From an uncultured virus (IMG/VR IMGVR_UViG_3300017766_004071) (lineage: Duplodnaviria > Heunggongvirae > Uroviricota > Caudoviricetes), in IMG/VR virus record IMGVR_UViG_3300017766_004071, positions 1-64,000 of that record: DNA of 64,000 nucleotides; one strand, 5' to 3'. Made by a program: the position numbers and the translations under genes. Each line of letters begins with the position of its first letter. The first letter of the stretch is position 1. Of the stretch, positions 506 through 63,413 are shown piece by piece. Below the pieces are notes generated by a model. It was not told the origin of the DNA and ran no database searches. It worked only from the letters and a program-made list of their open reading frames with translations.

Positions 506-582
506 AGTCCTGTGGCGGAAGGCACACGTGACCCCTCCTTAAGTGAAGGGGAAGTTTACAGGTTCGAATCCTGTCAGGACTA
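506..582 (+). ncRNA. tRNA-like scaffold RNA, copy 1
   Basis: Acceptor AGTCCTG/CAGGACT+A, T-arm ACAGG-TTCGAAT-CCTGT, degenerate D-arm, CCCCT/AGGGG hairpin with a 10-nt loop and no canonical anticodon loop. Confidence 0.75.
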
Positions 583-55344: not shown

Positions 55345-55714
55345 GGAAAAATTGGTTTAAAAGGAATGATTACTGCAAAGTTAACACAACAAATCAATTA
55401 ATCAAAATGGTAGCCGAGGATAGGTTCAAACCCTGTCACCCTCTGATAAGGAGGGGGGTTAGTCTCACTTTCCTAATCGCACGGGAATAAATTACTAACC
55501 AAAACCCATTCTGAAACCAATTTTTCCTATTTTTTCTTGACTTAATGAAACTTTTAAATTAATTTTACGTTATATAGAACAAAGGATAGATTCAGCAAAC
55601 TAAAAAAATCAAAACTTGTAAATTTGAACAAAAACTATCCTGACAATTAAGGTTATAACGAATGACTTCAGCAACTTAAAAAAGACAGCACATCTTAAAA
55701 AATCATTCCGAACC
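55345..55714 (+). ncRNA. Three stem-loop RNAs with C[A/T]GCAA motif directly downstream of the DUF2828 gene
   Basis: Units 55345-55527, 55583-55642 and 55651-55714; each is a 5' stem arm, then C[A/T]GCAA, an A-rich variable loop and the complementary arm. Confidence 0.6.
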
Positions 55715-55758
55715 AAACTTTTTAATAATTTAGTAATATTTATAAACAAATAACAAAA

Positions 55759-55854
55759 ATGAGAACATCGATAAACCATATTAGTAATTCAGTACAACCG
55801 CAATTTAAAAATTGTTGGTCAGCGGATTCTTATGGTTCAGGTGGAATCTCGTGA
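55759..55854 (+). CDS. 31-aa putative leader peptide
   Basis: MRTSINHISNSVQPQFKNCWSADSYGSGGIS; TATTTAT upstream, terminator downstream. Confidence 0.4.
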   Translation: MRTSINHISNSVQPQFKNCWSADSYGSGGIS

Positions 55855-55882
55855 TGGTAAAAAAGATATTAATTTTTTATAC

Positions 55883-55915
55883 AAACCCTGGACAAAAGAC
55901 GTTCAGGGTTTTTTT
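55883..55915 (+). terminator. Intrinsic terminator ahead of the tRNA cluster
   Basis: AAACCCTGGAC..GTTCAGGGTTT followed by a T-run. Confidence 0.65.
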
Positions 55916-55945
55916 GTGTTCTTTGACATCGTTGGTAAAATATAA

Positions 55946-56018
55946 TCCCCCTTGGTATAAAGGTTGATTACATCAGATTTTGAATCTGAGGATGGTGGTT
56001 CAATTCCATCAGGGGGAA
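55946..56018 (+). tRNA. trnQ: tRNA-Gln(TTG)
   Basis: TCCCCCT/AGGGGGA acceptor; TCAGA-TT TTG AA-TCTGA; TTCAATT loop. Confidence 0.88.
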
Positions 56019-56060
56019 CAATTTAAAGTGGTGAAATTTGACCACTTTAAAAAAAATATC

Positions 56061-56105
56061 AAATCTTGGAACTAATAGAACTTAAGGTTGGTTCATATAG
56101 ATGAA
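56061..56105 (+). promoter_or_regulatory. Two-box repeat, ECF-sigma-like promoter, copy 1
   Basis: AAATCTTGGAACTAA-N14-GGTTCATATAGATGAA; second copy at 57434-57478. Confidence 0.5.
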
Positions 56106-56136
56106 AGTTGATTATTAAATTTTAAAATAAAAAATT

Positions 56137-56412
56137 ATGGAACTAGTAAGAAAGGGGGAATCGAGATGTTATGTATTCCGTGAAGAAGACATCCAAAAGG
56201 TATATGATACCATCAAAGAAATTGATAATTTTGAATTTGATTATATGCCTAATAATTGGGTAACAGTTTTCAATAGTAAAGACGTACATAAAAACTATAT
56301 GGTATATAATGGTAAATTTGACATTGATGTACCTAAACTGATTGACGAGTGTGGTAAAAGGGGTGTAGGTATCATTGTTAGGTCTACTAATATTCAAGAT
56401 GATTGTTGGTAA
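56137..56412 (+). CDS. Hypothetical protein
   Basis: ORF track. Confidence 0.7.
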   Translation: MELVRKGESRCYVFREEDIQKVYDTIKEIDNFEFDYMPNNWVTVFNSKDVHKNYMVYNGKFDIDVPKLIDECGKRGVGIIVRSTNIQDDCW

Positions 56413-56466
56413 AAAAAACTTGATAAAACATTTGGAAATAAGAATATAGTGTCGTAATTTTGTGGA

Positions 56467-56532
56467 AGAGTAAGGAAAGGTCGTAGGTAGCACTGTCCAC
56501 AACCAGCCTTAAACGTGGTGGATACTTACTCT
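56467..56532 (+). ncRNA. Small structured RNA with possible pseudoknot
   Basis: Promoter at 56431-56462; AGAGTAAG/CTTACTCT stem, AAGG/CCTT inner stem, TCCAC/GTGGA pairing. Confidence 0.45.
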
Positions 56533-56562
56533 AAATTTTTTCAAACTTAAAATATTAATTTT

Positions 56563-56754
56563 ATGACTAAAAATCAAATTTTAAATCTTGAAGTTGGGGA
56601 TGTTATTCCAAATATGTTTGGTAAACTAAAAAAAGTCACAAGAATTTTACATAAAGGAACTGACATTAATGGAAAAATGTTTGTTTATTTTTACCAAGAA
56701 TTTGGGGATAGTAGTGAAATGTCTTCAACTTTAAAAGAAGGTAATCAAATATAA
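56563..56754 (+). CDS. Hypothetical protein
   Basis: ORF track. Confidence 0.6.
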   Translation: MTKNQILNLEVGDVIPNMFGKLKKVTRILHKGTDINGKMFVYFYQEFGDSSEMSSTLKEGNQI

Positions 56755-56759
56755 ATTAT

Positions 56760-56835
56760 GGTGGGATTGCCAAGTTGGTCAAGGCGAATAGCTGAAGATT
56801 ATTTAATGTAGGTTCGATTCCTACTCCCACCACCA
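56760..56835 (+). tRNA. trnF: tRNA-Phe(GAA), encoded CCA
   Basis: GGTGGGA/TCCCACC; AATAG-CT GAA GA-TTATT. Confidence 0.88.
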
Positions 56836-56850
56836 AACAACTATAAGACA

Positions 56851-57021
56851 ATGAGAAGCAAAACCGTAGATAGATTGCTGAAAAGCACACCGAAAGATGT
56901 AGAAATCTTTGTGGATTGGTATGCCGACCTGGTGGTTCGCATCAATCAGCTATTGCGTGAAAACGACATCAGCAAAAAGGAACTCGCAGAGAAGATGGAC
57001 AAAAAACCATCTGAAATTTAG
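56851..57021 (+). pseudogene. Truncated XRE/HigA-type HTH gene fragment
   Basis: MRSKTVDRLL..RINQLLRENDISKKELAEKMDKKPSEI*KW stops inside the recognition helix; visibly higher GC. Confidence 0.65.
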
Positions 57022-57034
57022 AAATGGATTATAT

Positions 57035-57107
57035 GAGGTATGAACCCAAATGGAGAGGGACAACATTGTGGATGTTGGTTTAGTGAGTTCGATTCTCATC
57101 ATACCTA
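57035..57107 (+). tRNA. trnH: tRNA-His(GTG)
   Basis: G-1, AGGTATG/CATACCT; CAACA-TT GTG GA-TGTTG. Confidence 0.85.
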
Positions 57108-57119
57108 CTTAAACAAATT

Positions 57120-57206
57120 GGAAAGTTAAGCTCGGCGGCCCGAGTCTACGTCTTGAAAACGATAGGTACAATTGTATTGTATGGGGCTCGACACCTCAGC
57201 TTTCCG
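57120..57206 (+). tRNA. trnS: tRNA-Ser(TGA), atypical
   Basis: GGAAAGT/GCTTTCC+G; loop CT TGA AA; long variable arm; bulged A in the anticodon stem. Confidence 0.75.
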
Positions 57207-57215
57207 CAAATATTT

Positions 57216-57288
57216 AGTCCCATAGTTCAATGGATTAGAACCGAACAATACGAATGTTCAAATACCCGTTCAAATCGGGTTGGGACTA
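57216..57288 (+). tRNA. trnR: tRNA-Arg(ACG)
   Basis: AGTCCCA/TGGGACT; GAACA-AT ACG AA-TGTTC. Confidence 0.85.
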
Positions 57289-57296
57289 CAAAACTC

Positions 57297-57419
57297 AGTC
57301 TTGTGGCGGAATGGTAGACGCAGCTGTGATAACTTCGCTGGAAGGTGAATCTCCTTTAAAATATTAGCAGGGTCAATCAGTTCTCAGTTATCGTATAGGT
57401 TCAAATCCTATCAAGACTA
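57297..57419 (+). ncRNA. tRNA-like scaffold RNA, copy 4
   Basis: AGTCTTG/CAAGACT+A, GCGGAATGGTAGACGC, insert closed by GATAACT/AGTTATC, T-arm ATAGG-TTCAAAT-CCTAT. Confidence 0.8.
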
Positions 57420-57433
57420 CAAAAAAAAATTTT

Positions 57434-57478
57434 AAATCTTGGAACTAAATGGTGAGAGAAGGGGTTTATGTAAATGAA
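57434..57478 (+). promoter_or_regulatory. Two-box repeat, ECF-sigma-like promoter, copy 2
   Basis: AAATCTTGGAACTAA-N14-GGTTTATGTAAATGAA just upstream of tRNA-Ser(GCT). Confidence 0.5.
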
Positions 57479-57491
57479 TTTAGAAACAATT

Positions 57492-57578
57492 GGAGGATAA
57501 AGTAATCAGGGTCGTTACCACCGCCTGCTAAGCGAGTGGCACCAAGTATGGTGTGGGGTTCGTGTCCTCTGTCCTCCG
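57492..57578 (+). tRNA. trnS: tRNA-Ser(GCT), atypical
   Basis: GGAGGAT/GTCCTCC+G; loop CT GCT AA; variable arm CACCA/TGGTG; bulged A in the anticodon stem. Confidence 0.78.
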
Positions 57579-57737
57579 CAAAAAAATATTAATAAGATTA
57601 GAGCAGTTGAGTTCATAACTCAAAGGAATGCAGACAGTGGAGATGAGCGACCCACCTAATCATTTTAAATGAATAAAAAAATATTCCAAAGTGTTTGGAA
57701 ATTAGAAAATGAAATCGTAATTTTGTGATACAATAAT

Positions 57738-57885
57738 AGTCCTGTGGCGGAATTGGTAGACGCTATTAAGATAACTAAGGCAGTATATTTTCTCGGAGTA
57801 AATATGCAAAGTCATAGTGTTGTACAGATTATCCGAGTGACGAGTACATGCTTAATTTTTACAGGTTCGAATCCTGTCAGGACTA
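57738..57885 (+). ncRNA. tRNA-like scaffold RNA, copy 5
   Basis: Own Bacteroidota promoter at 57694-57725; ends identical to copy 2; about 95-nt insert closed by ATTAAG/CTTAAT. Confidence 0.8.
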
Positions 57886-58098
57886 CAAAAAATTAAAAAA
57901 TAAAAGTTATGGACACACATTATTGGGTAAGATTTGAGATTAGAATTGAAACTATCAACAATCAATTAACTTCTGATGAACAAAAAGAAATCTTTGACTA
58001 TATAAAATCAAGAATTGACGGTAGAGATGACATAGATAGACCTAAAAAGTTGGATTGTTGTTTTGTCAATATGAGGAAATTTTAGATAAGTTAAATCA

Positions 58099-58228
58099 AG
58101 TCCTGTGGCGAAAGCTAAGGGTAGAGTGAAGATTGAATGTTCAGACACTCCTTAATACTAGGATTGGAGCGAAAGGTCTAACATAAACAATATGTAGCTT
58201 AATACGGGTTCGAATCCTGTCAGGACTA
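58099..58228 (+). ncRNA. tRNA-like scaffold RNA, copy 6 (D-arm lost)
   Basis: AGTCCTGTGGCG..insert closed by AAGCTA/TAGCTT..ACGGG-TTCGAAT-CCTGT-CAGGACTA. Confidence 0.72.
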
Positions 58229-58255
58229 TTTTTTAAACTATAAAATTAAAATATA

Positions 58256-58468
58256 ATGAACGCAAGAAAAGAAATACTTGGAAAAATAGAAGAGTTTGAA
58301 AAACGTGTGAAGTATTGGAAAGATAGACAAATAAATTTTAAATGGACAGAAGAAACTATAAAAGAGGGTGACCCATTATTTGTAATGTGTCAAGATTTTG
58401 AACATTCTTTTAAAGAAAAAATATTACTCTTGCAATGGGTATTAGATTTAATTAAAGATGAAAATTAA
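58256..58468 (+). CDS. Hypothetical protein
   Basis: ORF track. Confidence 0.6.
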   Translation: MNARKEILGKIEEFEKRVKYWKDRQINFKWTEETIKEGDPLFVMCQDFEHSFKEKILLLQWVLDLIKDEN

Positions 58469-58807
58469 AACAAACTAATATGATAAATAAAATTTCAGCA
58501 CTTTTTGCACTTTTAATCGGTATAATGTATTTTTCTTTATTTGCATACGATATAGAATATGACCGAGATTTAATGACTTGGTTTTGGCTATTATTTTCCG
58601 AAATTTGGTTTATGATTAGTTTACGTTTTTGGATTTTATATGATAAAAATAATTAAAAAATGTTAGTAATTATTGGTCTTTTATTTTTGATAATTGGAAT
58701 CTTATTCTTAATTTTGTCTTACAAAACAAAGAACTCAGACTTGTTTATAGTTGGAATTATATTTCTAATTGTTCTTTTGTTTGGATTTATATATGGTTTA
58801 ATAATAT

Positions 58808-58882
58808 AGAGTAGTAGCGCAATTGGTAGCGCACTCGGTTTGGGACCGAGAGATTTTGCAGGTTCGAGTCCTGTCTACTCTA
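58808..58882 (+). tRNA. trnP: tRNA-Pro(TGG)
   Basis: AGAGTAG/CTACTCT; CTCGG-TT TGG GA-CCGAG. Confidence 0.9.
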
Positions 58883-58890
58883 CAAGATTT

Positions 58891-58967
58891 AGGAAAGTAT
58901 CCCCTCAGCCTTATACGCCGTAGAAAGGGTAACTGGTAACATATGGGTTCGAACCCCATCTTTCCTA
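58891..58967 (+). ncRNA. Arm-rearranged tRNA-Ile(TAT)-like RNA
   Basis: AGGAAAG/CTTTCCT+A; the CT TAT AC loop lies 5' of the D-loop-like GTAACTGGTAAC; normal T-arm. Confidence 0.7.
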
Positions 58968-58980
58968 CAAAATTATAATA

Positions 58981-59057
58981 CGGCAAGTATACCCTCCGTC
59001 TGATACACGGTAGAAAGGTTAATTGGTTACATATAGGTTCGATTCCTATCTTGCCGA
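58981..59057 (+). ncRNA. Arm-rearranged tRNA-Ile(GAT)-like RNA
   Basis: CGGCAAG/CTTGCCG+A; CCGT-CT GAT AC-ACGG lies 5' of TTAATTGGTTAC; normal T-arm. Confidence 0.72.
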
Positions 59058-59066
59058 CAACAATAA

Positions 59067-59140
59067 GTCTCAGTAACTCAGTGGTTTAGAGTTCTCGACT
59101 GTTAATCGAGTGGTCGTAGGTTCGAATCCTACCTGGGACG
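59067..59140 (+). tRNA. trnN: tRNA-Asn(GTT)
   Basis: GTCTCAG/CTGGGAC+G; CTCGA-CT GTT AA-TCGAG. Confidence 0.92.
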
Positions 59141-59156
59141 CAAATTTTAATAAATT

Positions 59157-59384
59157 ATGGTTAATGTAAAAATTGGTGAATTTAAGGTTGGTGATAAGTT
59201 GTTTATTGATTATAGTGAAGATAATCCAAACAATAAACACATCGAAATTAGAGCAATTGTGGATATGGAGGTGGTGATTTATTTGGATGACAAAAATAAC
59301 TACCATATGGAACCAATTCATTACTTCAATGTGTTATGTAGATGTCACTCACTTAAAAAAATAACAAATGAAACGGACAATTAG
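59157..59384 (+). CDS. Hypothetical protein
   Basis: ORF track. Confidence 0.6.
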   Translation: MVNVKIGEFKVGDKLFIDYSEDNPNNKHIEIRAIVDMEVVIYLDDKNNYHMEPIHYFNVLCRCHSLKKITNETDN

Positions 59385-59523
59385 AAAACCAAGTTCTGCA
59401 AAGTTTTATGAAATGCTTAGAAATAAGTACAACAACTACATTAAGAAACAAGAAAATGAAATGGAAGATTCTACAAATTAGATTCCAACCTAAAAAATTT
59501 AATTAACAATATATAATTTTCAT

Positions 59524-60033
59524 ATGAAAAAAGAGTTTTTATTTAATGATAACATTATTGATTTTGAATTTGACGAAGTAATAGATAAAAAAATAAATGT
59601 TAAGGTATTTCACTATTTCAATAATAATCTTTTATTTGAAAAAATTGATGATAGAATAATTTGTCTTAAAGGTATTGGTAAATTATTCTTTCAAGAAGGA
59701 TTCCCAATTTCATTATCTATTTCAAAATTAAAAGAACAAGGGGTTGAGGTTAGTATATTACACGTTGCTGATGAATGTTTAAAAAATGGGTGGTCACCAA
59801 TCACAACATATAATAAATTAAAATCTGACTTTGAAGAAGATATTGACAAAGAAAATCATTATGATTTACATTTATTAAAAAAATTTTGTGAATCAAATTA
59901 TGAAGACCAAAGAGAAATGATATTTGAATATCTGTTTAAATGCAAAACTGATGATGTTAGAAATAAAAAAAATGAAAATCCAATAAATTGGTTACAATCA
60001 CTTGTAACTAGTGGGGCTAAAAATAAACTTTAA
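59524..60033 (+). CDS. Hypothetical protein with an AlaRS-like segment
   Basis: KLFFQEGFPISLS..GVEV resembles the AlaRS FKLYDTYGFPxDL segment; weak. Confidence 0.55.
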   Translation: MKKEFLFNDNIIDFEFDEVIDKKINVKVFHYFNNNLLFEKIDDRIICLKGIGKLFFQEGFPISLSISKLKEQGVEVSILHVADECLKNGWSPITTYNKLKSDFEEDIDKENHYDLHLLKKFCESNYEDQREMIFEYLFKCKTDDVRNKKNENPINWLQSLVTSGAKNKL

Positions 60034-60042
60034 CAAGAAAAT

Positions 60043-60117
60043 GACCCTGTAGCTTAGCTGGTTTAAAGCACAATACTTTTAATATTGGGAGCGGGAGTTC
60101 GAATCTCCCCAGGGTCA
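60043..60117 (+). tRNA. trnK: tRNA-Lys(TTT)
   Basis: GACCCTG/CAGGGTC; CAATA-CT TTT AA-TATTG. Confidence 0.9.
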
Positions 60118-60126
60118 CAACACAAT

Positions 60127-60211
60127 GTCCTTATGGTGTAATGGTTAAACATCCCACTCTTACAAAGTGGAGACGAGAAGTATAATCCTAGTTCGAATCT
60201 AGGTAAGGACA
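60127..60211 (+). tRNA. trnV: tRNA-Val(TAC) with enlarged variable region
   Basis: GTCCTTA/TAAGGAC; CCACT-CT TAC AA-AGTGG; 16-nt variable region. Confidence 0.8.
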
Positions 60212-60239
60212 CATTAAATGATTTTTAAAATATAAAAAA

Positions 60240-60488
60240 ATGAAAAAAATATTATTTCTTGGTTTGATATCTGTATTATTCCTTAGTTGCAAAAGAGAAG
60301 CTAAAGAAGAAATAGAAACAGATAATACTAATTATAGTGTTGAACTTCTATTTGAAGTTGATGGATGTAAAGTCTATCGATTTTTGGATGGTGAATTCCA
60401 TTATTTCACAACTTGTAATGGTTCTGTAACTCATAAAAGTAATGAAAAAAACTCCAAAGATTTGGAAATACAAACCGTTGTGAAATAA
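60240..60488 (+). CDS. Small lipoprotein (DUF4884-like)
   Basis: Lipobox LFLSC; LFEVDGCKVYRF. Confidence 0.75.
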   Translation: MKKILFLGLISVLFLSCKREAKEEIETDNTNYSVELLFEVDGCKVYRFLDGEFHYFTTCNGSVTHKSNEKNSKDLEIQTVVK

Positions 60489-60719
60489 AGATTTGAACAA
60501 TTAAGGGACCGAGCCTGCCTACAATTTCGGTGTGAGGTGCTAGTAGGTAATTGTTCTTTATGTTATAATAGTACCACGAGGCATCCCATAAGAACTGCTC
60601 ACTGCTGTGGTCTTGTTGCTTGTAAACGAATAGCCCAAGGTATAAGTTAGGAAGCTTAACTCAACCTATCCCCCACTGACGAGTGGGGTGAAGTTGGGGG
60701 ATTAAAAAAGAAACAATAG

Positions 60720-60805
60720 GGTCGGGTGGCCGAGTTGGTTAAGGCACTAGTCTGCAAAACTATCGAATGAAAAATTCATCGTGGGTTCAAATCCCTCCCC
60801 GACCT
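60720..60805 (+). tRNA. trnC: tRNA-Cys(GCA) with long variable arm
   Basis: GGTCGGG/CCCGACC+T; loop CT GCA AA; ATGAA/TTCAT variable stem. Confidence 0.82.
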
Positions 60806-60868
60806 CAAAAAAAAAGTTCAGTTAGTTATTTTTACTCATTTTGTTGATATTTATATATATATATATAT

Positions 60869-61618
60869 ATGAAATGGAATGATAACGATATTGAAAAATT
60901 AATTGATTTGGTTAATCAAGGATTAAAACCAAATAGTATTGCTGAAATTTTTGGGGTTACGTATAAAACGATAACTAATAAAATGTTTAGATTGGGTTTA
61001 CAAGTAGTTTATACAACAAATAAAACTTGTAAAAATTGTGGAAATACATTTGAGTCTTATTTAAGTAAAAACAAATTATTTTGTAATTCATCTTGTTCAA
61101 CAACGTTTAATAATAAAAAACGTAAACATAGTGAAGAAACTAAAAATAAAATATCAAAAACATTAAAAAGTAAACCAACTAAACCAACTAAGCCTACTAA
61201 ACCTAAAGTTGGTAAAATAAAAACTTGTAGGATTTGTAATAATAAAGTTATTGAAAAGTACAAAATTGTTTGTACTAATTGTAGGTTAGAGTATTATCAA
61301 TATTATAGACCTTCTTGTACTTTTCAATTTAATGTAAAGGATTATCCACAAGAATTTGATTTAATTTTAATTGAACAATATGGATGGTATTCTCCAACAA
61401 ATAAAAAAAATAATTTGGTTGGAGTCACAAAAGACCATAAATATTCAGTGATGGAAGGTTATAGAAATAAAATAGACCCTAATATTTTATCTCATCCAGC
61501 AAATTGTGAATTACTTTTATTTTCGGATAATTCGTCTAAAAATGGTAAATCGTCTTTAACATTAACCGAATTGCTTGAAAATATTGAAATTTGGAATAAG
61601 AAATACGGAAATATTTAA
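60869..61618 (+). CDS. Homing endonuclease-like protein (HTH, Zn fingers, NUMOD3-like, HNH-like C-terminus)
   Basis: CKNCG..FCNSSC, HSEETKNKISK, KDHKYS..HPANCELL..NSSK; inserted within the tRNA cluster. Confidence 0.7.
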   Translation: MKWNDNDIEKLIDLVNQGLKPNSIAEIFGVTYKTITNKMFRLGLQVVYTTNKTCKNCGNTFESYLSKNKLFCNSSCSTTFNNKKRKHSEETKNKISKTLKSKPTKPTKPTKPKVGKIKTCRICNNKVIEKYKIVCTNCRLEYYQYYRPSCTFQFNVKDYPQEFDLILIEQYGWYSPTNKKNNLVGVTKDHKYSVMEGYRNKIDPNILSHPANCELLLFSDNSSKNGKSSLTLTELLENIEIWNKKYGNI

Positions 61619-61646
61619 AAGTTATTATTATCTTTACAAAACATAT

Positions 61647-61721
61647 GGGAATGTAGCTCAATTGGATTAGAGTAGTGGATTCCAGACCCACAGGTTATAG
61701 GTTCGAGTCCTATCGTTCTCG
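61647..61721 (+). tRNA. trnW: tRNA-Trp(CCA)
   Basis: GGGAATG/CGTTCTC+G; GTGGA-TT CCA GA-CCCAC. Confidence 0.88.
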
Positions 61722-61752
61722 CAAATTTTATCAACAATTTAAAATACTTATT

Positions 61753-62064
61753 ATGGTAAGGGATTACATAATCGAAACATTAAAGAAAATCAAGGAACAC
61801 GATGAGAAGGTGCACAAGTTGTATGATATGGGAGTTGATTTACTTGACTTTAACAATACCACGTCCCAACTTGAGAAGTCTATTCCGACCATCCTCAGAA
61901 AAGAAAAAGACGAATCATACGGATGGATACAGGATTTAGTTGGTTGGTGGTTGTATGAAAATATTGAAAAAAAGATTTGGTATGATGAAATTGAAGTTAA
62001 TGTTGAAAGTGTCGAAGATTTTACCGACTATTTATTAAAAGAGTACAGCTCTATTAATGAATAA
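61753..62064 (+). CDS. Hypothetical protein
   Basis: The track start at 61675 lies inside tRNA-Trp; ATG 61753 preferred. Confidence 0.7.
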   Translation: MVRDYIIETLKKIKEHDEKVHKLYDMGVDLLDFNNTTSQLEKSIPTILRKEKDESYGWIQDLVGWWLYENIEKKIWYDEIEVNVESVEDFTDYLLKEYSSINE

Positions 62065-62075
62065 TCGTTTAAACT

Positions 62076-63413
62076 ATGAAAATTTTCTATTCAATTTTAC
62101 TAATCTTTTTACCTTTTTTAATTTATTCCCAAGGTCTTATAATAAATGAAATATCAAATGGTGATTCTGGAAACAGAGAATATTTTGAGTTAGTTGTTAT
62201 TGGCTCGACTTCAAACCCTACAATAAGTGTAGACTTGGGTGGATGGATAATAGATGATAATAATGGAGATTTTGAAGGTGTTTTAAGTGGGGTTGGTACA
62301 GCTCAAGGTCATATAAGAATTAAACCAGGATGTTTATCTAATGTAAAACCTGGGTCAATTATTTTAATTTATAATAGTGCTGATGTTAATCCCACTTTTG
62401 GGATAACTCCAGACCCATTAGATTTTGATGGTGATTGTGTTTATATTTTACCAATAAGTGATTTGTGTTTGGATAATACATCAAATTTACCAACAACAAC
62501 AAATCCATTGTATACTCCAGTTAGTTATACCGCAACAAGAATTTGGGATAGGATTGGATTTAGAAATGATGGTGATGCCGCACAAGTTAGAAGTCCAAAT
62601 GGTTTATTTTTTCACGGATTTTCATACGGGGATGTGTCAACCCCATTTCCCACTTTTCCATTTGGTGGTTCATCTTTTAATATTATAACAGGGAGTGGAT
62701 TACAAAGAAATTATTTTTTCAATAGTGGTAGTTTTGGAGCAAAAGTCAATTTCAGTAGAGGTGTTGCCCCAACAAATGAAACTCCAGGTCAACCAAATAA
62801 TGATGCCAATAGATATTTTATAAATTCATTAAGAATTGGGACTTATAATTATTCAAACTTATTAGACCCAATTAATATTGGTTCATCAACAACATTGGTT
62901 GATTGTGGGACAATATTACCAATTGGTATAATTGAATTTAAGGGAACAAAAATTAACGATAATGTCAATCTTCAATGGACGCTTGATAATGTCACAGAAG
63001 TCAATTATATTGAGTTGGAGAAGAGTTCAAATGGTTATGATTTCTATCCCATTTCTGAGATTTATCCTTATGATTTAACAATGAATTATATTGATGATTT
63101 GACTTACTCAGAAAATTATTATAGACTTAAAATTGTTGAATATAGTGGTGATATAACTTATAGTAATATTATTAATATCTCAAATAAAATTAACGATGAT
63201 GTATTAATATATCCCAATCCAACAAAAGATATATTGAATATAAAAACAATCAAAAATATTAATAGAATTTCACTATTTAATGAACTTGGGGTTGAATTTG
63301 TTATTGAGAATCCGACATCTCAAATTGATTTATCCTCATTGTCAAAAGGAATTTATATAGTTAAGATTAATATTGATGAGAATACAATTATTAAAAAAAT
63401 AATATTAATTTAA
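62076..63413 (+). CDS. Secreted protein with T9SS type A C-terminal sorting domain
   Basis: Signal peptide; LIINEI..E.FEL..DLGGWIIDD (lamin-tail-like); YYRLK..YSNI; IYPNPTKDILNI..IDLSSLSKGIYIVKI..KKI. Confidence 0.88.
   Translation: MKIFYSILLIFLPFLIYSQGLIINEISNGDSGNREYFELVVIGSTSNPTISVDLGGWIIDDNNGDFEGVLSGVGTAQGHIRIKPGCLSNVKPGSIILIYNSADVNPTFGITPDPLDFDGDCVYILPISDLCLDNTSNLPTTTNPLYTPVSYTATRIWDRIGFRNDGDAAQVRSPNGLFFHGFSYGDVSTPFPTFPFGGSSFNIITGSGLQRNYFFNSGSFGAKVNFSRGVAPTNETPGQPNNDANRYFINSLRIGTYNYSNLLDPINIGSSTTLVDCGTILPIGIIEFKGTKINDNVNLQWTLDNVTEVNYIELEKSSNGYDFYPISEIYPYDLTMNYIDDLTYSENYYRLKIVEYSGDITYSNIINISNKINDDVLIYPNPTKDILNIKTIKNINRISLFNELGVEFVIENPTSQIDLSSLSKGIYIVKINIDENTIIKKIILI

What the first reader, a model, noticed from the sequence alone, without database searches (positions are those of the whole stretch)
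58891..59057. Two 77-nt Ile-anticodon RNAs with the anticodon arm and D-loop in swapped order
Seen: both tandem RNAs read 7-bp acceptor, TA, TmCCCT, anticodon hairpin (CAGC-CT TAT AC-GCCG with one mismatch; CCGT-CT GAT AC-ACGG), TAGAAAGG, a D-loop-like AAYTGGT segment, AT, a canonical T-arm, acceptor+A. The D-loop GG motif lies 3' of the anticodon arm, where the variable loop normally is, and CCT/AGG can extend the anticodon helix. The acceptor stems differ but both pair fully. The two anticodons are both Ile (TAT, GAT), and no canonical tRNA-Ile is visible in this window. Inference: a functional tRNA with re-wired topology that rebuilds the L-shape and would be missed by cloverleaf finders. 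It might evade host anticodon nucleases, and TAT would bypass the lysidine route for AUA.
Basis: partly seen in the sequence, partly recalled or inferred. Interest (0 to 1): 0.88.

Follow-up and report, generated by a model that had tools for sequence, protein, structure and literature searches.

The report
Phage isoleucine tRNAs with transposed D-arm
Two neighbouring phage genes encode isoleucine tRNAs in which the pieces of the D-arm lie in a different order along the chain, a conserved and widespread design that standard tRNA finders and genome annotations miss.

Summary
Window 58891-58967 (anticodon UAU) and 58981-59057 (GAU) are 77-nt tRNA-like genes between tRNA-Pro and tRNA-Asn. Acceptor stem, anticodon arm, T-arm and A73 are canonical, but no D hairpin follows nt 8-9. 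ARAGORN finds neither; Rfam's tRNA model scores them 28.6 and 31.1 bits (threshold 29).

They belong to a large phage family. Scaffold patterns that leave the anticodon free gave 122 of 122 NAU anticodons, twice. Exclusion scans of IMG/VR found 0, 0 and 1 (CAU) exceptions. RNAalifold, a blind mutual-information ranking and pair counts all recover the same fold. It includes a 3-bp helix joining the 5' linker to the segment after the anticodon arm; its one variable pair is always paired (85 of 85, 95 of 95).

The parts map onto canonical positions: block 10-21 (D-stem 5' strand plus the GG D-loop) has moved behind the anticodon arm.

A sister family has the same topology with Arg anticodons (108 of 109), A after GG (the ArgRS A20 position) and mostly G73.

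Members occur, mostly unannotated, in cultured Streptomyces, Microbacterium and Vibrio phages and in crAss-like phages.

Charging, decoding and the L-shape are inferred, not shown. Ten literature searches found no description.

The parts
58891..58967 (+). RNA1: 77-nt rewired tRNA-Ile, anticodon UAU (58912-58914)
   Evidence: Sequence; RF00005 28.6 bits with the D-arm deleted and an 18-nt variable insertion; family model R1 92.5 bits against 23.1 or less for canonical tRNAs of the same record.
58981..59057 (+). RNA2: 77-nt rewired tRNA-Ile, anticodon GAU (59002-59004)
   Evidence: Sequence; RF00005 31.1 bits; R1 96.8 bits. Its minimum-free-energy fold already contains the anticodon hairpin and the extra 3-bp helix.
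58900..58903 (+). RNA1 U-C-C-C: counterpart of the D-stem 3' strand (positions 22-25), directly after U8 A9. RNA2 counterpart is 58990-58993 (U-A-C-C).
   Evidence: Alignment column 11 pairs with column 39 in 85 of 85 Ile-type and 95 of 95 Arg-type sequences, with 3 and 4 Watson-Crick pair types. RNAalifold predicts the helix unprompted.
58905..58921 (+). RNA1 anticodon arm (U.U, 4 bp, loop CUUAUAC). RNA2 counterpart is 58995-59011 (loop CUGAUAC).
   Evidence: All 4 stem pairs show double compensatory changes. The loop is CU-NAU-A-N in 122 of 122 matches to a pattern that specifies nothing in the arm.
58922..58926 (+). RNA1 connector A-G-A-A-A between the anticodon stem and the D-stem 5'-strand counterpart. 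RNA2 counterpart is 59012-59016.
   Evidence: Sequence. GAAA was fixed by the search patterns, so its conservation is not independent evidence. A Vibrio phage member has a longer, different connector.
58927..58939 (+). RNA1 GGGU + AACUGGUAA: counterpart of D-stem 5' strand (10-13) and D-loop (14-21, with G18 G19 and U20). RNA2 counterpart is 59017-59029 (GGUU + AAUUGGUUA).
   Evidence: Moving this block in silico to behind A9 makes ARAGORN of 85 family members as cloverleaf tRNAs, against 0 of 85 in native order. The base after GG follows the anticodon class: U with Ile 73 of 74, A with Arg 33 of 33.
58940..58959 (+). RNA1 C-A-U linker (U as a candidate position 48) and canonical T-arm. RNA2 counterpart is 59030-59049.
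   Evidence: 4 of 5 T-stem pairs covary and G53:C61 is invariant. Column 42 with column 53 is A:U in 76 and A.C in 9 of 85.
58808..58883 (+). Flanking canonical tRNA-Pro(UGG), 7 nt upstream of RNA1
   Evidence: ARAGORN and RF00005 64.6 bits.
59067..59141 (+). Flanking canonical tRNA-Asn(GUU), 9 nt downstream of RNA2
   Evidence: ARAGORN and RF00005 69.7 bits.

Best explanation
The two RNAs are working elongator tRNAs for isoleucine: UAU for AUA, GAU for AUU and AUC. They belong to a phage-borne tRNA class whose chain is a non-circular permutation of the normal one. The canonical order is acceptor 5', 8-9, D-stem 5' strand (10-13), D-loop (14-21), D-stem 3' strand (22-25), 26, anticodon arm, variable loop, T-arm, acceptor 3'. 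Here the order is acceptor 5', U8 A9, [U22 x23 C24 C25], C26, anticodon arm, AGAAA connector, [G10 G11 y12 U13], [A14 A15 Y16 U17 G18 G19 U20 N A21], C-A-U48, T-arm, acceptor 3', A73. The D-stem and anticodon stem, which normally only stack, become one continuous hairpin. The D-loop becomes an open strand that runs from the D-stem to the T-stem. It can still put G18 G19 on the T-loop and A14 on U8, so the L-shape is rebuilt. The acceptor/T-arm half is unchanged, so RNase P, CCA addition and EF-Tu should see a normal substrate. IleRS would read NAU, A37, A73 and U20. Shown here: the sequence, its conservation, the helices by covariation, the restriction of anticodons, and the array context. Inferred: the tertiary contacts, transcription and processing, aminoacylation and decoding.
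For: Fold:
- RNAalifold on 85 distinct family sequences predicts, unprompted, the acceptor stem, a 3-bp helix (columns 11-13 with 37-39), a 4-bp anticodon stem and the T-stem. 16 of 19 pairs keep pairing through double changes.
- Pair counts: 93.3% of cells are paired against 63.9% in shuffles and 34-48% when partners are slid. For 95 Arg-type sequences the figures are 95.5% against 65.8%.
- A blind APC-corrected mutual-information ranking puts the 16 variable helix pairs at ranks 1-16. The rewired pair 11:39 is at rank 7.
- Pair 11:39 is never unpaired: C:G 52, A:U 26, U:A 7; A:U 42, C:G 34, G:C 15, U:A 4. Members found by the covariance model also change the neighbouring pairs compensatorily: CCG:CGG in Mildred21 and CCUA:UAGG in a Vibrio phage.

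Anticodon:
- With the triplet left free: TAT 91, GAT 31 of 122.
- With nothing specified in the whole arm: TAT 84, GAT 37, CAT 1 of 122.
- Scans of all IMG/VR for a middle base other than A, a third base other than T, and a first base A or C gave 0, 0 and 1 hit.

Identity marks:
- A73 in 129 of 131.
- U after GG in 73 of 74 Ile-type against A in 33 of 33 Arg-type, in a sample not selected on that base.
- A:U at the 23:12 counterpart in 19 of 25 GAU-type members.
- These match the bacterial Ile set (A73, U12-A23, U20, A35, U36, A37) and Arg set (A20, C35, A/G73) tabulated in PMC9976931 (passages seen).

Permutation:
- Moving columns 37-50 to behind column 9 turns 0 of 85 into 85 of 85 ARAGORN cloverleaf calls, each with the same anticodon as in native order.

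Context:
- The genes sit in a tight Pro-Ile-Ile-Asn array.
- 79 of 116 family loci have other tRNAs within 400 nt.
- The record's 25 canonical tRNAs cover 19 amino acids, all but Ile.
- Ile is 8.6% of codons, and AUA is 35% of those.
- In two complete crAss-like genomes the rewired tRNA is the only Ile tRNA, beside 12 and 3 canonical tRNAs.
Against: - No experiment stands behind charging, decoding or the 3D fold.
- The only expression hint is one 204-nt contig of a metatranscriptome covering 58857-59013. It may derive from DNA in the library and shows no ends.
- The single-sequence folding energies are ordinary: z = -0.39 and -1.04.
- RNA1's minimum-free-energy fold is not the family fold.
- Only 1 of the 3 pairs of the extra helix varies within the pattern-derived alignments. 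Many conserved columns (CCC, GAAAGG, TAA, GG) were fixed by my search patterns, so their invariance there is by construction.
- The controls of the un-permutation test are loose. Blocks slid by -6 to +2 columns still give 31-85 of 85 calls, so that test does not fix the block's boundaries.
- The U/A-after-GG association may partly reflect two clades rather than repeated events.
- Some Ile identity elements are absent: G16 is Y, and C4-G69 holds in 36 of 85.
- Several phages carry canonical Ile tRNAs beside the rewired one: Jay2Jay, Mildred21 and G001. The rewired copy is therefore not always needed.
- The window's record is about 27% complete, so a canonical tRNA-Ile may lie elsewhere.
Confidence: 0.8

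Rival explanations
1. A D-armless tRNA in the mitochondrial sense. It is functional in decoding, but the segment after the anticodon arm is only a flexible connector. The molecule is a floppy or boomerang-like adaptor without a rebuilt D-stem/D-loop core.
For: Rfam's tRNA model aligns it as a D-arm deletion plus a variable-region insertion. The extra helix has only 3 pairs. No tertiary contact was observed directly.
Against: Pair 11:39 is paired in 180 of 180 sequences, with four Watson-Crick types. The connector carries the canonical D-loop signature A14 R15 .. G18 G19 N20. A21, at normal length. Its base after GG tracks the amino-acid class as position 20 does in canonical tRNAs. At 77 nt it is not shortened like D-armless mitochondrial tRNAs.
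Confidence: 0.1
2. A tRNA mimic that does not decode. For example, a decoy or sponge for host tRNA-directed defence nucleases, modification enzymes or sensors, or a primer-like or regulatory RNA.
For: Phage tRNAs that counter tRNA-targeting defences are known (recalled, not tested here). Several phages carry canonical Ile tRNAs as well, so decoding capacity may be redundant there.
Against: A decoy would not need strict NAU or Arg anticodons together with matching discriminator and position-20 bases in two sister families. Nor would it need a full 7-bp acceptor stem with covariation at all 7 pairs. In this record and in two complete crAss-like genomes it is the only Ile tRNA.
Confidence: 0.07
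3. Rearranged, decaying tRNA pseudogenes or an assembly artefact with no function.
For: The window holds other tRNA fragments and odd tRNA-like pieces.
Against: The same architecture is found in well over 200 independent viral contigs and in cultured phages of three bacterial genera. Compensatory changes occur in every helix. Near-identical DNA of this locus is held by runs of at least 8 further studies.
Confidence: 0.01

Closest known systems
Canonical bacterial and phage tRNA-Ile (GAU; UAU or CAU-lysidine for AUA)
   Same: 7-bp acceptor stem, A73, 5-bp T-stem with a GTTCRA loop, anticodon loop CU-NAU-A-N, total length 77 nt. All conserved core nucleotides are present (U8, A14, R15, G18, G19, A21, a candidate U48). 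The genes lie in tRNA arrays.
   Different: The order of parts along the chain. The D-stem 3' strand follows A9, and the D-stem 5' strand plus D-loop follow the anticodon arm. There is no closed D hairpin, and a 5-nt AGAAA connector is added. RF00005 scores at or below threshold and ARAGORN misses it.
D-armless mitochondrial tRNAs (mammalian mt-tRNA-Ser(AGY), nematode mt-tRNAs; review PMC7609411, passages seen)
   Same: No D hairpin between the acceptor and anticodon stems. The anticodon helix is effectively extended.
   Different: Those are shortened molecules that have lost the D-loop/T-loop contact and need adapted partner proteins. This one keeps full length and a D-stem and GG D-loop counterpart elsewhere in the chain. 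It occurs in phages of bacteria.
Circularly permuted tRNA genes of Cyanidioschyzon merolae (cited in PMC10085705)
   Same: The gene order of tRNA segments differs from the canonical order.
   Different: There the 3' half precedes the 5' half and processing through a circular intermediate restores a normal tRNA. Here both termini are the normal acceptor ends and the permutation is internal (non-circular). No cut-and-join route to a normal tRNA is apparent.
Natural non-circular permutations in self-cleaving ribozymes (PMC10085705, passages seen)
   Same: An internal re-ordering of structural elements that should keep the 3D positions.
   Different: That paper's introduction says no non-circular permutation was known in natural RNAs before it. 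In the passages I read, it mentions tRNA only for the circularly permuted genes. This would be such a case in tRNA.
allo-tRNAs and other (8/4), (9/3) tRNAs of bacteria and phages (PMC5389517, passages seen)
   Same: Non-canonical tRNA architecture found by metagenome mining, partly in phages. UAU is among their frequent anticodons.
   Different: allo-tRNAs change the acceptor/T-stem split and carry a long variable arm, but keep the normal order of arms. Here the 7/5 split is normal and the D-arm is re-wired.

Membership tests
tRNA (Rfam RF00005 / canonical cloverleaf) | 7-bp acceptor stem with discriminator base | tested here: met
   7 of 7 pairs in both RNAs. All 7 pairs covary in the family.
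tRNA (Rfam RF00005 / canonical cloverleaf) | T-arm: 5-bp stem, 7-nt loop T54 T55 C56 R57 A58 | tested here: met
   AUGGG-UUCGAAC-CCCAU and AUAGG-UUCGAUU-CCUAU. 4 of 5 pairs covary.
tRNA (Rfam RF00005 / canonical cloverleaf) | Anticodon arm with 7-nt loop, U33 and purine 37 | tested here: met
   CUUAUAC and CUGAUAC. The stem has 4 Watson-Crick pairs plus a conserved U.U at the 27:43 place.
tRNA (Rfam RF00005 / canonical cloverleaf) | D-arm hairpin between positions 9 and 26 | tested here: not met
   cmscan aligns 4 nt where the model has 15. ARAGORN gives no call in standard or mitochondrial mode.
tRNA (Rfam RF00005 / canonical cloverleaf) | Score at or above Rfam's gathering threshold (29 bits) | tested here: inconclusive
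   RNA2 scores 31.1 bits (met); RNA1 scores 28.6 bits (not met).
tRNA-Ile isoacceptor (bacterial identity set, PMC9976931 table) | Anticodon N34 A35 U36 with A37 | tested here: met
   UAU and GAU. Family: 122 of 122, in two separate samples. Exclusion scans gave 0, 0 and 1 (CAU).
tRNA-Ile isoacceptor (bacterial identity set, PMC9976931 table) | Discriminator A73 | tested here: met
   A in both RNAs. 129 of 131 in the family.
tRNA-Ile isoacceptor (bacterial identity set, PMC9976931 table) | U12-A23, C29-G41, C4-G69 | tested here: inconclusive
   RNA2 has all three at the mapped places. RNA1 has G:C, A.C and A:U instead. Family: A:U at 23:12 in 19 of 25 GAU-type but 6 of 59 UAU-type.
tRNA-Ile isoacceptor (bacterial identity set, PMC9976931 table) | D-loop determinants G16, U20, U21 | tested here: inconclusive
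   U at the mapped position 20 in 73 of 74 Ile-type. Position 16 is C or U, not G. Position 21 is A.
tRNA-Ile isoacceptor (bacterial identity set, PMC9976931 table) | Aminoacylation by IleRS and decoding of AUH codons | not testable with these tools
D-armless mitochondrial-type tRNA | Loss of the D-arm without replacement; shortened molecule; no D-loop/T-loop contact | tested here: not met
   77 nt. A covarying 3-bp D-stem counterpart and a 9-nt loop with GG are present.
Circularly permuted tRNA gene | 3' half encoded upstream of the 5' half, with the acceptor ends internal to the gene | tested here: not met
   Acceptor 5' and 3' strands are at the two ends of the gene and pair 7 of 7.
Class II tRNA (long variable arm) | Self-contained stem-loop between positions 44 and 48, in addition to a normal D-arm | tested here: not met
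   The extra segment pairs with the 5' linker (columns 11-13 with 37-39), not with itself, and there is no D hairpin.

The most novel reading that the evidence does not exclude
This is a second, topologically distinct natural solution to the tRNA L-shape: the first non-circular permutation of a tRNA. It works in bacterial translation for two amino acids (Ile and Arg) and moves between phages of unrelated hosts. It is kept by selection because the re-wired core is not recognised by host factors that read the canonical D-arm or core (defence tRNases, or modification or decay enzymes). That would secure the phage's supply of AUA, AUY, AGR and CGN decoders while the host's own tRNAs are attacked.
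Probability: 0.2. Interest if true: 0.95.

Novelty: new variant of a known kind. Interest (0 to 1): 0.88.

Why it matters
[quoted passage not shown] A natural, conserved tRNA whose D-arm is wired differently would show that the cloverleaf order is not the only chain path to a working adaptor in bacterial systems. It would also offer a ready-made test of which tRNA partners read chain connectivity rather than shape.

There is a practical point too. These genes are missed or mis-named in public phage genomes. Most of the 41 matching records for the Ile type carry no annotation there. One is labelled tRNA-Leu, others tRNA-Phe, tRNA-OTHER or hypothetical protein. Phage tRNA complements and codon-supply analyses are therefore undercounted for Ile and Arg.

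Cultured Streptomyces phages carry both types, so the question can be tested directly at the bench. A scaffold that IleRS and ArgRS may accept but other tRNA-binding enzymes may not could also interest genetic-code engineers.

Tried and rejected
- Alternative canonical cloverleaf: none. ARAGORN in standard and mitochondrial modes gave no call, and the cmscan alignment has no D-arm.
- Thermodynamic stability as evidence: z-scores of -0.39 and -1.04 are unremarkable.
- Promoter and terminator scan of 55500-62500: 32 promoter-like sites against 37.2 expected and 3 terminator-like against 2.7. Uninformative.
- Expression: four RNA-library runs hold only small parts of the stretch. One 204-nt contig (X18) spans 58857-59013; the rest of RNA2 has no cover. 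Contigs show no ends, and DNA carry-over cannot be excluded. I do not count this as proof of transcription.
- Earlier findings of this scan: nothing by place or by sequence.
- Cellular genomes: the strict pattern hit 9 contigs among one genome each of 185,579 species. All 9 are metagenome-assembled bins, and one has the same length as an IMG/VR viral contig. I read these as phage contigs; no isolate genome was hit. Divergent cellular copies are not excluded.
- Other amino acids on this scaffold: a scan for C or G after GG gave 6 loci, of which only 1 is a real member (CAU). One 1.2-kb metagenome contig has an Ile-type scaffold with UCU. It may be an anticodon switch, a mutation or an error.
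- Conserved protein partner: none is apparent in the short flanks. A nucleotidyltransferase gene precedes the Streptomyces-phage Ile copy, and HNH endonuclease genes precede two Arg copies. I did not follow this up.
- Un-permutation controls: too tolerant to define the block's boundaries.
- Bacterial Schlafen paper (PMC13056530, passages seen): it concerns cleavage of canonical tRNAs and has no bearing on this structure.
Full report
**1. The observation**

There are two 77-nt units. Each has a fully paired 7-bp acceptor stem and U8 A9. Then come six pyrimidine-rich bases (UCCCCU, UACCCU) and a 4-bp stem closing a 7-nt loop, CU-UAU-AC or CU-GAU-AC. After that come UAGAAAGG, y-UAAYUGGUNA-CAU, a canonical T-arm, the acceptor 3' strand and a discriminator A.

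The units lie 7 nt after tRNA-Pro(UGG), 13 nt apart, and 9 nt before tRNA-Asn(GUU). ARAGORN finds 12 tRNAs in the window but neither of these, and none in mitochondrial mode. Rfam's tRNA model scores them 28.6 and 31.1 bits against a gathering score of 29. It does so only by deleting the D-arm (4 nt for 15 model positions) and inserting 18 nt in the variable region. The scaffold motif occurs twice in the window and never in 100 shuffles.

**2. The source genome**

The window is part of an IMG/VR virus record of 75.7 kb, estimated 27% complete, with 29.7% G+C. Near-identical DNA of this locus is held by runs labelled freshwater or lake-water metagenomes from at least 8 studies, besides the possible source samples.

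ARAGORN finds 25 tRNAs in the record. They cover 19 amino acids, every one except Ile. Ile makes up 8.6% of codons in long ORFs: AUA 35%, AUU 54% and AUC 11% of those. A UAU plus a GAU tRNA would therefore cover a real demand.

**3. A large family**

BLAST found copies in a 462-kb uncultured phage, in two crAss-like phages and in 40 cultured Streptomyces phages. All have the same layout and different acceptor stems.

I ran three kinds of pattern scan.
All 122 matches, including the window, L001 and L002, carry TAT (91) or GAT (31).
- Three scans of all IMG/VR asked for the opposite. A middle base other than A gave 0 hits, a third base other than T gave 0, and a first base A or C gave 1 (CAT).
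- A pattern that specifies nothing in the 18-nt anticodon arm again gave 122 of 122 loops of the form CU-NAU-A-N: TAT 84, GAT 37, CAT 1. Of these, 48 were not hit by the first pattern.

In 241 million metagenome records, one 1.2-kb contig has this scaffold with UCU.

**4. The fold**

I aligned 85 distinct Ile-type sequences (A1). Three independent analyses agree.
- RNAalifold, given no structure, predicts the acceptor stem, the T-stem, a 4-bp anticodon stem and a 3-bp helix between columns 11-13 and 37-39. That helix joins the linker after A9 to the segment after the anticodon arm.
- A blind mutual-information ranking puts the 16 variable pairs of exactly these helices at ranks 1-16. Pair 11:39 is at rank 7.
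- Pair counts give 93.3% of cells paired, against 63.9% in shuffles and 34-48% with slid partners.

Pair 11:39 is C:G 52, A:U 26, U:A 7 and never unpaired. Both columns were free in the search pattern. In 95 Arg-type sequences it is A:U 42, C:G 34, G:C 15, U:A 4.

The other two pairs are invariant C:G in these pattern-derived sets. That is partly by construction. Members found with the covariance model change them compensatorily, to CCG:CGG in Streptomyces phage Mildred21 and CCUA:UAGG in a Vibrio phage.

A U.U at the 27:43 place is constant in the Ile type. Whether C26 and U27 pair with the AG of the connector, as in RNA2's minimum-free-energy fold, is unresolved.

**5. Mapping onto the canonical tRNA (inference from the sequence)**

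Read 5' to 3', the parts are:
- 1-7, U8, A9
- U22, x23, C24, C25
- C26
- anticodon arm 27-43
- AGAAA connector
- G10, G11, y12, U13
- A14, A15, Y16, U17, G18, G19, N20, N, A21
- C, A, U48
- T-arm, 66-72, A73

Every universally conserved core nucleotide (U8, G10, A14, R15, G18, G19, A21, Y48; established tRNA knowledge) has a counterpart at the right distance. Only the order differs: block 10-21 has moved from behind A9 to behind the anticodon arm.

In the known L-shape, the D-stem stacks on the anticodon stem through 26:44, the U8:A14 pair stacks on 13:22, and 21 and 48 are neighbours. The three new junctions (9 to 22, 43 to 10 through a 5-nt connector, 21 to 48 through 2 nt) therefore link residues that are already close. 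This rests on recalled structural knowledge and was not modelled here.

I tested the mapping in silico. Moving alignment columns 37-50 to behind column 9, with nothing deleted, turns 0 of 85 ARAGORN calls into 85 of 85 cloverleaf calls: 84 tRNA-Ile and 1 tRNA-Met for the CAU member. The controls are loose. Blocks slid by -6 to +2 columns still give 31-85 of 85 calls, while +3 to +6 give 23, 4 and 0. The test shows that all cloverleaf parts are present, but not the exact boundaries.

**6. A sister family for arginine**

Dropping the GGT from the pattern revealed members with ACG, TCT and TCG anticodons.
- Anticodons: 108 are Arg (ACG 50, TCT 43, CCT 8, TCG 5, CCG 2) and 1 is GAT.
- Discriminator: G 65, A 30, U 13, C 1.
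- CCA is encoded after the discriminator in 80 of 109.

In the sample not selected on that base, 107 of 121 matches parse as full rewired tRNAs. Ile-type members have U after GG in 73 and A in 1; Arg-type members have A in 33 and U in 0. The Fisher test gives 8e-27, but it is not corrected for relatedness, and the two types may simply be two clades.

The match to the textbook identity rules is the point. These are A20, C35 and A/G73 for bacterial ArgRS, and A73, U20, A35 and U36 for IleRS (PMC9976931, table and passages seen). It is what one expects if the open strand after the extra helix is read as a D-loop and the RNAs are charged by the ordinary synthetases. RNA2 also has the counterparts of U12-A23, C29-G41 and C4-G69; RNA1 does not.

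**7. Distribution and annotation**

A covariance model built on A1 (R1) separates members from canonical tRNAs cleanly. Ile-type members score 85-97 bits, against at most 24.3 bits for canonical tRNAs in six records. Arg-type and divergent members found with R1 score lower, from 30.1 to 76.1 bits.

Members occur in these cultured phages:
- Streptomyces phages: Ile(GAU), Arg(ACG), Arg(UCG) and a divergent Arg(UCU) in Mildred21.
- Microbacterium phages: Arg(ACG).
- Vibrio crassostreae phages: Arg(UCU), with a longer connector.

They also occur in crAss-like phages and in contigs from 4 kb to more than 400 kb. Under most BLAST matches the GenBank record has no feature. Where it has one, it reads tRNA-Leu (EGole), tRNA-Phe(gaa), tRNA-OTHER or hypothetical protein.

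ARAGORN overlaps 2 of 118 elements in their native context. Among family loci, 79 of 116 have other tRNAs within 400 nt, including a canonical tRNA-Ile(GAU) in 17.

In the complete crAss-like genomes PQ006092.1 and NC_055901.1, the rewired UAU tRNA is the only Ile tRNA, beside 12 and 3 canonical tRNAs. A 412-kb phage and the Streptomyces phages have canonical Ile tRNAs as well.

The strict pattern hit only 9 contigs in one genome each of 185,579 prokaryote species. All 9 are metagenome bins.

**8. What is not shown**

- No call demonstrates transcription, end maturation, charging or decoding.
- One metatranscriptome contig covers RNA1 and the start of RNA2. This is weak evidence.
- The elbow contact and base triples are inferred.
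- The reason for the re-wiring is open. Nothing supports evasion of anticodon nucleases, and the anticodon loop is fully canonical.
- The idea that host factors reading the D-arm or core fail to recognise it is my speculation.

**9. Rivals**

- A floppy D-armless adaptor without a rebuilt core. The covarying helix and the D-loop signature argue against it.
- A non-decoding mimic. The anticodon and identity-element coupling in two families argues against it, as does the cases where it is the sole Ile tRNA.
- Pseudogenes. The conservation excludes this.

**10. Novelty**

Ten full-text searches of the held open-access library found no description. Neither did targeted reading of the review on non-canonical tRNAs (PMC7609411) or of the allo-tRNA paper (PMC5389517).

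The abstract of PMC11551756 (listing) says all known bacterial tRNAs are canonical cloverleafs. The introduction of PMC10085705 (passages) says no non-circular permutation was known in natural RNAs before its ribozyme cases. In the passages I read, it mentions tRNA only for the circularly permuted genes.

Subscription journals are not covered by these searches, and I opened no supplements, so prior description elsewhere cannot be excluded.

**11. Verdict**

This is a real, conserved, widespread and largely unannotated class of phage tRNAs with a transposed D-arm segment. The window holds two Ile members. I file it as a new variant of a known kind (tRNA), with high interest.

Noticed in passing
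window 60127-60212, 60720-60806; same record beyond the window: G000 65677-65768, 67640-67726, 69381-69466, 70864-70952: tRNAs for class-I amino acids carry a long variable-arm hairpin like class-II tRNAs: Val(UAC), Cys(GCA), Gln(UUG), Met or Ile2(CAU), Thr(UGU) and Arg(UCU), 86-92 nt by ARAGORN's drawings. This is unusual for bacterial-type tRNAs.
   Followed up: partly
window 57297-57419 and 881-972: RF00005 hits of about 41 bits that ARAGORN misses. Acceptor stem, D-arm and T-arm are normal. The first has about 49 extra nt at the anticodon region. The second has no clear anticodon arm. They may be intron-bearing, degenerate or otherwise non-canonical tRNA-Leu-like genes.
   Followed up: partly
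window 561-582, 951-972, 1066-1087, 57398-57419, 57864-57885, 58207-58228: The 22-nt 3' end (T-arm 3' half plus acceptor strand) of tRNA-Leu(UAA) recurs 6 times with up to 3 mismatches, against 0 expected. Two copies belong to tRNA-like stubs that R1 picks up weakly. This may be a trace of repeated insertion or recombination at tRNA-Leu.
   Followed up: partly
G000 66541-66634 (outside the window): A 94-nt tRNA with an 8-nt anticodon loop, read by ARAGORN as a 4-base anticodon 'caag'.
   Followed up: no
L499 18368-18443 and 13380-13454 (Streptomyces phage Mildred21); L120 595-671 (EGole): GenBank annotations that cover rewired tRNAs with a wrong label: tRNA-Phe(gaa) for an Arg(UCG) member, tRNA-OTHER for a divergent Arg(UCU) member, and tRNA-Leu for an Ile(GAU) member.
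   Followed up: yes
L499 17932-18366 (Mildred21) and L498 326-688 (Microbacterium phage A3Wally): An HNH endonuclease gene ends 2 and 7 nt before a rewired Arg tRNA in two unrelated phages. In Streptomyces phages the Ile member follows a tRNA nucleotidyltransferase gene. This could be chance in endonuclease-rich tRNA clusters.
   Followed up: no
A1 rows L008, L112, L125; A2 rows L424, L426, L447: Six members have a T-loop that reads A-U-C-A-U instead of U-U-C-R-A. Positions 54 and 58 are swapped together (U54:A58 to A54:U58). This looks like a compensatory change in the T-loop's internal pair.
   Followed up: no
L144 (metagenome contig, 1.2 kb): An Ile-type scaffold (U after GG, A73) with anticodon UCU. 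It is the only hit in 241 million metagenome records with a middle anticodon base other than A on this scaffold. It may be an Ile-to-Arg anticodon switch in progress, or an error.
   Followed up: partly
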